Shown one piece after another: positions 25,566 through 57,345 of a stretch of DNA of 64,000 nucleotides. Position numbers and translations under genes: made by a program. The stretch covers positions 62,001 through 126,000 of the forward strand of contig CAXHJY010001097.1 of NCBI GenBank assembly GCA_964016885.1. The letters are read 5' to 3'. Numbering within the stretch: position 1 is the first letter of the stretch; every line of letters begins with the position of its first letter. The notes beneath the pieces were generated by a model that saw only the letters and a list, made by a program, of their open reading frames with translations, was not told the DNA's origin and ran no database searches. This DNA is from Eledone cirrhosa (lineage: Eukaryota).

Positions 25566-25799
25566 AAAGGGGAATGTTGTGTGAGCTTAACTCAAATCGT
25601 GAAGACTGGAAGAGGAGATGACGAAGGAGCGCATTTAGTGGAGAGATGTCATGCTAAGAAGGACCCGTCCAACCCATGCAGGCATGGATAGTACATGTAA
25701 TGATGATACACAAAATATACACAATATATATATATAAATAATATGTATATAGTGTATGTGCTACATATACACAATATATACACTATATATATATATATG

Positions 25800-26145
25800 T
25801 GTGGAGGCACATGGCTTAATGGTTAGAGCATTGGCCTTGCAATCGAAAGGTTGTGAGTTCAATTCTCAGACCGGGTGATGTGTTGTTTCCTTGAGCAAGA
25901 CACTTTATTTCACATTGCTCCAGTTTACTCAGCTGTAGAAATGAGATGATAGGGACTGGGGTCCCTATCATTCCACTGTAAAGTGGTCGTGGAGGTGCCA
26001 CGGCAAAAAAGCACCCAGCACTCATTGTAAATGAGGTTAGTGTTAGGAAGGGCATCCAGCTGTAGAAATCAAGCCAGAATCAGTTCCCGTCTTACCCTTG
26101 CAAGCAGGGAAAAGTGAATGTAAAATGAAATGATGATGATGATGA
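25800..26145 (+). mobile_element. tRNA-derived SINE with RTE-type 3' tail, left arm only
   Basis: A-box-like tggcttaatgg, B-box-like gagttcaattc, core ccttgagcaagacact, tail acccttgcaagcagggaaaag...(ATG)n. Confidence 0.8.
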
Positions 26146-26475
26146 ATGATAAATAATATGTATATAGTGTATGTGCTACATATACACTATATATATATAT
26201 ATATATATAATATGTATATAGTGTACATGCTACATATACACAAAATATACACTATATATATATATATATGTATATAGTGTACGTGCTACATATACACAAA
26301 ATATACACTATATATTTATATAAATACTATGTATATAATATATGTGCTACATATACACAATATATATACATATAAATAATATGTATATGCTATATATATA
26401 CACTATATATATATATATAAATACTATGTATATAGTGTATGTACCACATATACACAATATATACACTATATATAT

Positions 26476-26873
26476 ATCATCATCATCGTTTAACGTCCAT
26501 ATTCCACGCTTGCATGGGTTTGGACGGGAGTTTTCCCACTTGAGGCAAGAGTGGTTGTCTTGCTAGCATAGGACTGTCTGGCGGGTTTTCTACGGCTGGA
26601 TGCCCTTCCTAACACCAACCACATTTACAGTGTGGGGCTGGGAGTTTTTTACCGTGTTGCCTACACGGCCACATTACGGCGTGCACTGTGTGTTTTTTTG
26701 TCGTGACACCTACACGACCTCATTTGTTTCGGCCTGGATGTTGTGGTACCAACATAACTTTACATTGAAAGGGGTGGTGGGGGTGATGTGACGGGGGTGT
26801 ATTTTGTTAGCGATGCCTACTGACTGTAGGTTTACTTTGTATTTAGGTAAGGCGGGTCTTCTCTATTACTGAG
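26476..26873 (-). mobile_element. RTE LINE 3' end (5'-truncated), same family as 54280-56686
   Basis: Reverse complement of 56272-56686; (ATC)n tail. Confidence 0.85.
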
Positions 26874-54279: not shown

Positions 54280-56686
54280 TCAATTAAGGCCAAAAAGCAG
54301 GCTTGGAAAGTATGGCGGGATGGGGGAAGCAGAGAAGATTATCAAATGGCCAGGAGGGAAGCTATGAAACAAGTGTACTTCGCAAGAAGCGAAGCAGAGG
54401 AAAGAAAGTTCAAGCATGTCCGACAACGCGAGGACCAAAAACGTGAGGTGTTCAGTATTGCGAGGCAATGTGTCAGGGAAAACCGTGATATTGTCGGGGA
54501 GAAGTGTGTACTTAATGATGACGGCGTACTTGCCATCACCAACACTGATAAAAAGGTAGCTTGGAAGTGTCACTACGAAAGGCTACTAAATGAGGAGAAT
54601 AAATGAGAGAAAGACAGTCTCCCCCACATCGACCCAATAGAGGGACCAGCAGTGTTAGTCGAGGGTAGTATAATAAGTAAGGCAATCAAAGATATGAAGA
54701 CGGGTAAGGCGGCTGGGCCTTCGGAAATAGTTGCCGAGATGCTGAAGGCATCTGGTACGGTGGAACACACCATGGTCACCTGGATAGTTAACCAAGTCGT
54801 ACAGAATGGGGTTGTTCTGAAGGACTGGCGTAGCAGCAGCATCGTTAACTGTTATAAGGGTAAAGGAGATGCCCTAGATAGGAGTAACTATAGAGTCATT
54901 AAATTAATCGACCAGGTCATGAAGGTCACGGAAAAAGTAATAGCGCAACTAATCAGAGAGAGAATTGATCTAGATGAAATGCAGTTCGGGTTTGTGTCAG
55001 GCAAAAGTACCACAGACGCTCTTTTCATTGTACGACAACTACAGGAGAAGTACCTAGCTAAAAGTAAACGCCTATACTTAGCTTTTGTCGACTTGGAGAA
55101 AGCCTTCGACAGAGTCCCCCGTTCCATTATCTGGTGGGCTCTTAGAAAACTAGGTGTTGACGAATGGCTTGTGAGAGCTATACAAGCCATGTATAAAGAA
55201 ACAGTCAGCAAGGTTAGAATTAACAACGAATATAGTGAAGAGTTTAGTGTAAAAGTTGGCGTCCATCAGGGCTCTGTTCTCAGCCCCCTACTATTTATTA
55301 TTGCCCTTCAGGCTATAACAGAGGAGTTCAAGACCGGTTGCCCATGGGAACTCCTATACGCAGATGACCTAACACTCATAGCTGAATCAATGGCCGAGCT
55401 AGAGAAGAAATTCCAAACATGGAAGCACGGCCTAGAATCAAAAGGCCTTAAAATTAACCTGGCTAAGACTAAAGTTCTAGTTTGTAAGAAAGAAAATAAG
55501 GTGGCGGTCCCTTCCGGGAAGTGGCCATTCTCAGTGTGTAGGAAAGGCGTAGGTAGAAACTCCATTTTGTGTCCCAAATGCAAAGTATGGGTGCATAAAA
55601 GATGTAGTGGTAAGCTAACTAAGAACATAGATTTTACATGTGGCCGGTGCTCTGGTGCAATAAGTAGCAGCAAGTGTCCACAAAATACTAGCTCTTTAAA
55701 CTGCGCAGAGGGTTCGATAGAAATAGTGGACAGCTTCTGTTACCTGGGTGACAAAATCAGCAGTGGGGGAGGGTACTCTGAAAGTACAGCAGCTAGAGTC
55801 AGAACTGGATGGAAAAAGTTCAGAGAGCTTATACCACTATTAGCCGCTAAAGGGTTCTCCCTAAAAATGAAAGGCAGGTTGTATGATGCCTGCATACGAA
55901 CAGCAATGTTGCATGGCAGTGAGACCTGGGCATTGTGTGCAGAGGATATACGTGACTAGAGAGGAACGAAGCTTGCATGCTCCGCTGGATGTGTAATAGT
56001 AATATACGTGAACGGCAAAGCATAAACGAACTAAGGAAAAAATTAGAAATAAGAGGGATCAGATATTGTTTACTCGAGAGAAGGCTACGTTGGTATGATC
56101 ACGTGATGCGCATGAAAGACGATAGCTGTATAACAAAGTGCAGGGCATTAAAGATAGACGGTAGCCACGGAATAGGCAGACCCAGAAAGACCTGGGACGA
56201 GCTGATAAATTCCGACCTCACACACTTACACCTCACCAAGACAATGTCACTGGACCGAGACCTTTGGCGGTACTCAGTAATAGAGAAGACCCGCCTTACC
56301 TAAATACAAAGTAAAACCTACTACAGTCAGTAGGCATCTCTAACAAAATACACGCCCGTCCCCCCACCCCCACCCCATCCACACCGCCCCTTTCAATGTA
56401 AATTTATGTTGGTACCACAACATCCAGGCCGAAACAAATGAGGTCATGTAGGTATCACGACAAAAAAACACACAGTCCATGCTGTAATGTGACTGTGTAG
56501 GCAACACGGTAAAAACCTCCCAGCCCCACACTGTAAATGTGGTTGGTGTTAGGAAGGGCATCCAGCTGTAGAAAACCCGCCAGACAGTCCTATGCGAGCA
56601 AGATAATCACTCTTGCCTCAAGTGGGAAAACCCCCGTCCAAACCCATGCAAGCGTGGAACACGGACGTTAAGCGTTGATGATGATG
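54280..56686 (+). mobile_element. 5'-truncated RTE LINE with RT, a few disruptions, 3'UTR and (ATG)n tail
   Basis: ORFs 54346, 54652 (YADD) and 55977; stop at ~54604, frameshift at ~55950. Confidence 0.95.
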
Positions 56687-56814
56687 TATATTTTGTGTAT
56701 ATGTAGCACGTACACTATATACATAGTACTTATATGTATATATTTAGTGTATATTTTTGTGTATATGTAGCACATACTATATACGTATGTATATATATAG
56801 TGTATATTTTGTGT

Positions 56815-57345
56815 ATCATCATTACACTACTTTTCCATGCTTGCATGGGTTGGACGGGTCCTTCTTAGCACGACATCTCTCCACTAGATGCGTTCCTTCG
56901 TCATCTCCTCTTCCAGTATTTACAATTTGAGTTAAGCTCTCACAACATTTGCCCCTGACTTTCTTGGTCATCCTCTCCTGCAGCTTCCTTCCACTAGGAT
57001 TTCTCCAAGCTCTGTATTTCTCAAACATATACGTTGCAGATCCAACAAAACATGGTTGCTTCATTTTTCTCCAGTCTAATCGCATCATCTGCAGTCACAG
57101 CCCATGTTTCTCTACCATGCAGTATTGTGCACTTCACACAGGCTTTATATACCCTTCCTTTTGTGTGTAGGGAGAAACCTTATGTTATCAGCAGTAGTAG
57201 TTCACTAAACTTCCATCCTATCCTTATTCAAGCCACTCTACTCTTGGCACACCCTCCTCTGCTGCTGATTAGGTCACCTAGATAGCAGAAGCTATCAACC
57301 ACATCTATAGATCCTTCCTGTGACTGGAAACGGTGTATAACAGTA
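56815..57345 (-). mobile_element. Old RTE 3' fragment; the arm homology ends within it
   Basis: VVDSFCYLGD.IS..GGC motif; tail acccgtccaacccatgcaagcatggaaaag; mirror remnant at 25570-25710. Confidence 0.75.

What the first reader, a model, noticed from the sequence alone, without database searches (positions are those of the whole stretch)
25570..56955. 31-kb palindrome duplicating a C2H2 zinc-finger gene head-to-head
Seen: two ~15-16 kb arms in inverted orientation, folded at a ~400-bp (TA)n-rich spacer. They differ by scattered substitutions, satellite copy number (14 vs 9) and reciprocal TE insertions with clean empty sites, so this is not a single-read fold-back chimera. Inferred: fold-back or template switching at (TA)n is a route by which cephalopod-type ZNF clusters expand.
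Basis: partly seen in the sequence, partly recalled or inferred. Interest (0 to 1): 0.75.

Follow-up and report, generated by a model that had tools for sequence, protein, structure and literature searches.

The report
Zinc-finger duplicons fused at small palindrome
The 31-kb mirror image is real in the assembly, but its arms are two different members of a zinc-finger gene block present in at least 40 copies, likely joined head-to-head by recombination inside a small AT-rich palindrome at the block's front end rather than by one arm folding back on itself.

Summary
The inverted arms are real: 96.3% identity over 8,069 non-repeat columns, 80-bp satellite 14.9 vs 9.9 copies, four clean insertion/empty-site pairs. 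They are not a fold-back pair. The arm is a duplicon with at least 40 copies in this 3.0-Gb genome. The arms are never nearest relatives in 6 of 6 segments, share no exclusive allele, and fall on opposite sides of an old 200-bp insertion (14 copies filled, 18 empty). The centre is an older 1.75-kb AT-rich palindrome (E). In four close relatives of the left arm it leads into non-arm DNA. The window's E has a flipped interior, and its far half passes into a right-arm junction also found at one other locus. Best reading: two crossovers within E halves joined two old paralogs, so the 31-kb palindrome is likely younger than its 3.7% arm divergence. The left gene is frameshifted; the right has a 368-aa frame. 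(TA)n is not enriched at block ends (3 of 16). No read support was obtained. It resembles PATRR and GOLGA duplicon hubs. The scan noted two other giant palindromes in this genome, on other DNA.

The parts
25570..41030 (-). Left copy of the ZNF duplicon ('L' lineage); well-aligned core 26919-40322
   Evidence: 98.4-99.0% to G000:C28:126,475,100 onward in three long blocks; nearest relatives C28, C370, C18:5.82M
42788..56956 (+). Right copy of the ZNF duplicon ('R' lineage); its homology to other paralogs runs on beyond 56956
   Evidence: inner part 99% to C18:8.622M and C18:8.725M vs 93% to left arm; 56722 onward collinear with C18:5.695M for 11.3 kb at 97.8%
41030..42809 (.). Element E: 1.75-kb AT-rich palindrome, two ~0.7-kb halves around a TA-rich spacer with one asymmetric G-rich marker (~41915-41960)
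   Evidence: self-match 41053-42809; whole E at C28:126.491M, C370:350k, C18:5.710M, C18:5.820M; halves 97.3% alike
41353..41506 (.). Inferred crossover/conversion tract of the interior flip of E (mirror position about 42357-42510)
   Evidence: left half near-type at 7 of 7 outer sites and far-type at 5 of 5 inner sites; right half far-type at 5 of 7 and near-type at 5 of 5
42510..42780 (.). Inferred switch from the L-type E to the R-type unit
   Evidence: R-type only at the outermost site (mirror of 41086) and in the flank; L-type from the mirror of 41353 inward; junction 42700-42900 whole only here and at C18:8,726,409 among 40 scored candidates
30770..31880 (-). Left C2H2 finger exon, frameshifted after finger 2 (62-aa frame)
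   Evidence: same 62-aa frame in the C28 copy
50703..52137 (+). Right C2H2 finger exon: 368-aa open frame (12 canonical fingers) to a stop at 51807-51809; four more fingers in frame behind the stop
   Evidence: the same stop ends the frame in 6 of 29 copies translated and is present in the left copy
35626..36799 (.). 80-bp satellite, 14.9 copies; unit resembles a finger repeat
46300..47091 (.). 80-bp satellite, 9.9 copies
27400..29377 (-). 5'-truncated LINE with open 650-aa RT frame, private to the left arm
   Evidence: Pfam RVT_1 + PHD; filled 1, empty 16 copies
54280..56690 (+). Different LINE in the right arm
   Evidence: RVT_1; inner junction shared with C18:5.698M and C18:8.612M
33063..33262 (.). 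~200-bp element with ~15-bp target duplication; old lineage marker
   Evidence: filled in 14 copies incl. left arm, empty in 18 incl. right arm
48991..49191 (.). ~200-bp element of the same family, private to the right arm
   Evidence: filled 1, empty 27
37455..38371 (+). Helitron-like insertion (TC...CTAG between A and T, no target duplication; label recalled); L-lineage marker
   Evidence: filled 5, empty 5
40322..41073 (.). 752-bp left-only segment holding a near-perfect 395-bp hairpin element (40642-41036)
   Evidence: hairpin at 9 duplicon loci and about 18 dispersed loci
39944..40322 (.). Hairpin element; mirror copy at 42788-43163 and another at 44169-44531

Best explanation
The two arms are different, long-separated copies of a zinc-finger gene block present at least 40 times in the genome, and they were likely joined head-to-head by homologous recombination inside a small AT-rich palindrome (E) at the block's front end. 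Shown: each unit carries an E half at its head; in the left arm's close relatives E is complete (two opposed halves) and leads into unrelated flanking DNA; a right-arm-type unit elsewhere ends in a single half. Inferred: because a complete E offers the same sequence in both directions, a crossover between its far half and the half of a right-type unit joins two units in opposite orientation. A second crossover between E's own halves flipped its interior; the order of the two events is not known. The 31-kb palindrome is therefore likely younger than the split of the left arm from its 98-99% relatives, although its arms differ by 3.7%. E itself likely arose earlier as a small inverted duplication or triplication at the TA-rich spacer. 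Whether hairpin or cruciform breakage at E starts the exchanges is untested.
For: At least 40 copies, 21 of 40 on one scaffold, both strands. The left arm's partner ranks 10/11, 12/22, 6/18, 9/14, 10/11 and 9/10 among its relatives. AU test rejects the two arms as a clade in 4 of 4 testable segments (p 4.6e-6, 0.032, 2.0e-4, 1.6e-5); 0 alleles exclusive to both arms in 4,966 bases. An old insertion splits the family 14 filled / 18 empty with the arms on opposite sides. Left outer junction at 3 other loci, right outer junction at 2, right inner junction at 1. Of 6 other full E loci compared, 4 share one downstream flank of several kb (92-98%) and 2 share another; none continues as in the window. 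The spacer marker is reversed relative to the arm in 4 of 4 left-arm relatives, and the window's halves are reciprocal mosaics. The left arm is nested among relatives with non-arm flanks (segment 36830-37450).
Against: The outer part of the right arm has no close relative: best match 94%, with the left arm second; its rank for the left arm is 2/18 and 4/11 in two segments. The AU test shows only that the left arm has closer relatives; I did not test 'left clade + right arm' as a clade. The right half of E is R-type at a single diagnostic site. Paralogs are mosaics, so trees differ by segment and many forks are weak. About 1.0 Mb was fetched, holding 23 of at least 40 copies for the best-sampled segment. 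No read evidence: an assembly join at the shared E half is not excluded.
Confidence: 0.68

Rival explanations
1. Old fold-back: one unit folded back at the TA-rich spacer, the giant palindrome survived here while its arms drifted 3.7% apart, and the relatives were later copied from either arm and lost the other.
For: The halves of E are 95-98% alike, near the arm-to-arm value. The outer right arm has no relative clearly closer than the left arm. Earlier notes read two other palindromes of this genome this way (e1-9511556, e1-9510050; unchecked).
Against: It needs repeated loss of the far arm with the same replacement flank in 4 loci, one of them older than the left clade. The 200-bp insertion ties the left arm to 13 other copies to the exclusion of the right arm. 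Both outer junctions occur elsewhere. The window's E has the minority orientation, against 4 of 4 relatives. No exclusive shared allele.
Confidence: 0.12
2. Assembly artefact: the assembler passed from a left-type locus to a right-type locus through the shared E half, so the head-to-head pair does not exist in the animal.
For: The window lies on an unplaced 222-kb contig in a family of at least 40 copies. The exact left-E-right combination occurs once among the loci found. A 99% copy of the left arm with another flank starts at a scaffold gap on C28.
Against: The contig has no N gaps. The shared sequence at the switch is only a few hundred bases at 95-98%. The right arm plus its flank is not a near-identical copy of any other locus found (best 94-99% by segment; private 200-bp insertion), so it needs a home of its own. 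The arms are not alleles.
Confidence: 0.1
3. One replicative event: a break or stalled fork at E was repaired by fold-back priming and template switching onto a right-type paralog, giving the same sequence without a reciprocal crossover.
For: E is an interrupted palindrome, and palindromic junctions are rearranged by end joining, BIR or homologous recombination (PMC10766186, Introduction). The middle of the exchange tract has mixed alleles (3 sites).
Against: The flip is reciprocal in both halves and no inserted or non-homologous bases appear at either switch, as crossovers would give. Sequence alone cannot separate this from the best explanation.
Confidence: 0.1

Closest known systems
Palindromic AT-rich repeats (PATRR) in the human LCR22 duplicons (PMC6724673, PMC12047281; passages read)
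   Same: An AT-rich palindrome rides inside a multi-copy duplicon, and exchanges between paralogs, including inversions, map to it.
   Different: PATRR events there are read as breakage with end joining, once with inserted bases; here both switches are clean and lie in the unique part of the halves. E has a ~0.4-kb spacer and halves only 95-98% alike, so cruciform extrusion is less likely. Here the product is a head-to-head pair of gene units.
GOLGA core duplicons of human chromosome 15 (PMC6436712; passages read)
   Same: A ~14-kb gene-bearing core in about 40 copies, mostly on one chromosome, in both orientations, with mosaic flanks; palindromic pairs are preferred recombination sites.
   Different: Here the core carries a C2H2 finger exon in an invertebrate-like genome, many copies are broken, and the pair is held together by a small pre-existing palindrome.
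Inverted triplication / ODIRA (PMC10766186; abstract and Introduction read) and yeast fold-back inverted duplications (PMC10622511; passages read)
   Same: Four relatives show an E half three times in +,-,+ order, like a small inverted triplication, later rearranged by homology.
   Different: These mechanisms copy one arm, so the arms start identical (established knowledge); the 31-kb arms belong to different lineages. They can explain E, not the long arms.
Mouse SD12A1 palindromic segmental duplication (PMC13688818; abstract read)
   Same: Autosomal palindromic duplication with diverged arms and no sign of arm-to-arm conversion.
   Different: Megabase scale with a 530-kb gap; origin not traced to a small palindrome in the abstract.
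Octopod C2H2 ZNF clusters (PMC9795677; passages read)
   Same: Dense C2H2 clusters on a few chromosomes.
   Different: That paper dates the expansion to about 41 Ma and, in the passages read, gives no duplicon-level mechanism; this family is only 1-8% diverged.

Membership tests
Fold-back inverted duplication (31-kb arms) | Both arms derive from one copy, so they are each other's nearest relatives or share exclusive alleles | tested here: not met
   never sisters in 6 of 6 segments; 0 exclusive alleles; AU rejects 4 of 4 testable
Fold-back inverted duplication (31-kb arms) | New junctions: at the centre and at the outer end of the copied arm | tested here: not met
   centre at 4 close loci; outer junctions at 3 and 2 other loci; right inner junction at 1
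Core duplicon / segmental duplication family | Gene-bearing block over 1 kb and over 90% identity in many copies, with mosaic flanks | tested here: met
   40 of 40 scored candidates match 801 bases at 92-100%; 29 chains of 3 kb or more with 16 distinct internal ends
NAHR junction | Switch between paralog-specific variants inside shared homology, no added bases | tested here: met
   the R-type side rests on one site plus the flank
NAHR junction | Both parental configurations exist | tested here: met
   left arm + E + other flank at 4 loci; right arm + half E at C18:8.7265M
PATRR-type fragile palindrome | AT-rich palindrome inside a low-copy repeat, at rearrangement points | tested here: met
   E halves 31-32% GC around a TA-rich spacer; different flank combinations across 7 loci
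PATRR-type fragile palindrome | Near-perfect symmetry with cruciform extrusion and double-strand breakage, joined by end joining | tested here: inconclusive
   halves 97.3% alike with an asymmetric spacer; switches look homologous; breakage not testable here
Conversion-maintained palindrome (sex-chromosome type) | Arm-to-arm homogenisation (arms above 99%; threshold recalled) | tested here: not met
   96.3%, longest identical run 160 bases; 0 exclusive alleles
Foldback/TIR transposon (for E) | Many dispersed full copies at unrelated sites with target duplications | tested here: not met
   about 34 near-full halves, mostly beside duplicon pieces; 8 loci with two opposed halves; both ends in (TA)n. 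Only 40 of 739 candidates were scored
Functional C2H2 ZNF gene pair | Both copies intact and transcribed | tested here: not met
   left copy frameshifted after finger 2; right copy 368 aa; transcription not testable

The most novel reading that the evidence does not exclude
E is a portable orientation adaptor: a small AT-rich palindrome fixed at the head of a young zinc-finger core duplicon, which lets ordinary recombination flip itself, swap flanks and join gene units head-to-head. It would be a main engine of orientation scrambling in this octopus-type ZNF cluster, an invertebrate counterpart of PATRR and GOLGA hubs. If the E half is also the gene's promoter (it faces the gene in 11 of 12 complete units), each fusion would build a bidirectional promoter pair.
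Probability: 0.25. Interest if true: 0.65.

Novelty: new member of a known kind. Interest (0 to 1): 0.4.

Why it matters
It shows primate-style core-duplicon architecture, with a palindromic AT-rich exchange point, in a C2H2 zinc-finger cluster of a large invertebrate genome. How such clusters grew is open; my searches found no duplicon-level account. It also carries a practical warning: in a multi-copy family, arm divergence dates the paralogs, not the palindrome, and a TA-rich centre is not proof of fold-back. The same tree test should be run on other 'aged' giant palindromes. The gene-level payoff is small, since one copy is broken and expression is unknown.

Tried and rejected
Read support for the centre was not obtained, so depth and spanning reads are untested. 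Run search: no RNA holder listed, no evidence either way. (TA)n as a general breakpoint signal in the unit body: 3 of 16 ends, background 17.6%, p=0.55; ends at the query edges, which include the E spacer, were left out. Arm-to-arm conversion: no exclusive alleles. Ribozyme or other known RNA in E or the hairpins: 0 Rfam matches in the window. E half as promoter: ETS-like motif (label recalled) in 29 of 36 halves but altered in 2 of the 3 old copies covering it, CpG ratio 0.44-0.52 against 0.46 for the window, and no C2H2 pattern within 10 kb of the old copies; inconclusive. E as a dispersed transposon: rejected on distribution. Taxon from protein relatives: uninformative, generic fingers up to 59% and mostly unnamed RTs up to 57%. 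The global alignment wrongly paired the two LINEs; its 61-70% windows were discarded. AU test failed on 2 of 6 segments because of identical rows. Sequence look-ups of earlier notes gave nothing relevant. PMC4244265 is not held; only its title was seen in a reference list. No supplements were read.
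Full report
Observation. Self-BLAST of the window gives a chain of minus-strand matches from 25568/56956 to a self-match at 41053-42809. Thirteen non-repeat pieces agree at 7,768 of 8,069 columns, 96.3%, with a longest identical run of 160 bases. The 80-bp satellite has 14.9 and 9.9 copies. Four arm-specific insertions have clean empty sites. The finger exons point away from the centre. The description is right, with four corrections given under the observation check; the main one is that the centre is a separate 1.75-kb palindrome, called E here.

The arm is a multi-copy block. The window is C1124:62,001-126,000 of a 3.0-Gb genome; the contig is 222 kb, unplaced and without gaps. 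An 801-base piece of the arm matches at full length in 40 of the 40 candidates scored, at 92-100%, 21 of them on scaffold C18 and on both strands. I fetched about 1.0 Mb in all, which holds 11 to 23 copies per segment, so the sample is partial. The taxon is not fixed by my calls: protein searches gave generic hits. Genome size and earlier scan notes suggest an octopod.

The arms are not each other's copies. In six segments (4,966 bases) the left arm's nearest relatives are always elsewhere, at 99-100%, and the right arm ranks 10/11, 12/22, 6/18, 9/14, 10/11 and 9/10. The AU test rejects the two arms as a clade in 4 of 4 testable segments; two could not be tested. No allele is exclusive to both arms; 11 minor alleles are shared by both and by others. 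The inner right arm is 99% identical to two loci on C18, against 93% for the left arm. Insertions tell the same story. The 200-bp element at 33063 is present in 14 copies including the left arm and absent in 18 including the right. The Helitron-like piece is in 5 and absent in 5. Only the left LINE and the right 200-bp element are private. So most of the 'reciprocal insertions' are inherited lineage markers. Against this reading, the outer right arm has no close relative, and the left arm is its second-best match.

All junctions but one pre-exist. The left outer junction occurs at 3 other fetched loci and the right outer junction at 2; the right arm and its flank run on for 11.3 kb at 97.8% with C18:5.695M. 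The junction between the right arm and its E half occurs whole at one other place, C18:8,726,409, among 40 scored; there the unit ends in a single half and the next unit follows head-to-tail. Left arm plus complete E occurs at C28, C370, C18:5.71M and C18:5.82M, and in each the match stops at 42809. Of six other full-E loci compared, four share one downstream flank of several kb, with a third half in +,-,+ order, and two share another flank; none continues as the window does. One of the four is more diverged than the left clade, so the non-arm flank is the likely ancestral state. Only the combination left arm + E + right arm is unique to the window.

E records two exchanges. An asymmetric marker in the spacer points the opposite way, relative to the arm, in 4 of 4 left-arm relatives. 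At sites that separate the near and far halves of those relatives, the window's left half is near-type at 7 of 7 outer sites and far-type at 5 of 5 inner sites; its right half is far-type at 5 of 7 and near-type at 5 of 5. Three sites between 41378 and 41503 carry the same allele in both halves. This is a reciprocal flip with a mixed tract at about 41353-41506. The right half is right-lineage only at its outermost site and flank, which places a second switch at about 42510-42780. That bracket rests on one site.

Mechanism. An E half lies at the head of the unit, facing the gene, in 11 of 12 copies that keep the inner marker; the twelfth has only a reversed half. A complete E therefore offers the shared head sequence in both directions. 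A crossover of its far half with the half of a right-type unit gives a head-to-head pair (inferred). The left arm is nested among relatives with non-arm flanks, so the fusion is likely younger than their 0-2% divergence, while the arms differ by 3.7%. (TA)n is not a general breakpoint signal here: 3 of 16 distinct block ends lie near (TA)5+, against 17.6% expected. Confidence 0.68; old fold-back 0.12; misassembly 0.10; one replicative event 0.10. No reads were laid on the centre.

The genes. The right copy has a 368-aa frame with 12 canonical fingers, ended by a stop that ends the frame in 6 of 29 copies translated and is also in the left copy. The left copy is frameshifted after finger 2, as is its C28 relative. 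Frames across the family run from 5 to 452 aa. The structure is thus not a pair of intact genes. No 5' exon was identified, and the promoter idea for E stayed inconclusive.

Comparison. PATRRs inside LCR22 duplicons drive deletions and inversions between paralogs (PMC6724673, PMC12047281, passages). GOLGA cores, about 14 kb and nearly 40 copies, are preferred recombination sites when palindromic (PMC6436712, passages). Palindromic junctions of inverted triplications are rearranged secondarily by homology (PMC10766186, abstract and Introduction); yeast fold-backs start at short inverted repeats near a break (PMC10622511, passages). A diverged palindromic duplication without conversion is known in mouse (PMC13688818, abstract). 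Octopod C2H2 clusters are described without a duplicon mechanism in the passages read (PMC9795677). Searches found no report of such a hub in a cephalopod cluster; the library lacks most subscription journals.

Verdict. Real structure, wrong first mechanism, known kind of process in a new setting. Interest 0.4. Earlier notes read two other giant palindromes of this genome as fold-backs; I did not check them, and the paralog test used here applies to both.

Noticed in passing
window 40642-41036, 39944-40238, 42873-43163; half copy 8334-8554: Near-perfect hairpin elements of 290-395 bp sitting in (TA)n, 74% alike in a 140-bp core. The 395-bp one occurs at 9 duplicon loci and about 18 dispersed loci on other scaffolds; the other family is high-copy. 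No Rfam match. Class of element unknown.
   Followed up: partly
window 35626-36799 and 46300-47091: The 80-bp satellite unit reads like a decayed 84-bp finger repeat (HT.I.TGE.PY.C..C): a satellite likely born from a zinc-finger array, on the strand opposite to the gene in each arm.
   Followed up: no
window 19340-23730 and 24735-25580: Further, older partial copies of the same duplicon (75-98% by piece), with a broken finger exon at about 22290-23250, in the orientation of the left arm.
   Followed up: partly
window 32839-32981: A 143-bp hairpin in the left arm, made by a 107-bp local inverted duplication that the right arm lacks: a small fold-back event.
   Followed up: partly
G000:C28:126,474,900-126,492,824: A 99% copy of the left arm plus E starts right at a scaffold gap; it may be the other haplotype of this locus, which would make the palindrome a heterozygous structural variant.
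   Followed up: partly
window 51807-51809: A stop that cuts off the last four fingers is shared by many paralogs with different finger numbers (6 of 29 frames end there), while the fingers behind it stay in frame.
   Followed up: partly
window 1-5150, 6539-7674, 7713-8239, 12600-14390: A 48-bp satellite (108 copies), a 42-bp array (27 copies), a 527-bp local palindrome, and a ~100-bp array whose units are separated by (TA)n of varying length.
   Followed up: no
window 57977-62024 and 62919-63639: A broken, nearly full-length LINE on the minus strand (endonuclease and RT matches), and a 226-bp inverted repeat pair beside it.
   Followed up: no
G000:C26:20,571,772-20,572,387 and C25:10,936,072-10,939,478: Old (79-86%) E-half relatives away from the cluster; the C26 one is already a small palindrome with a short TA-rich spacer.
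   Followed up: partly
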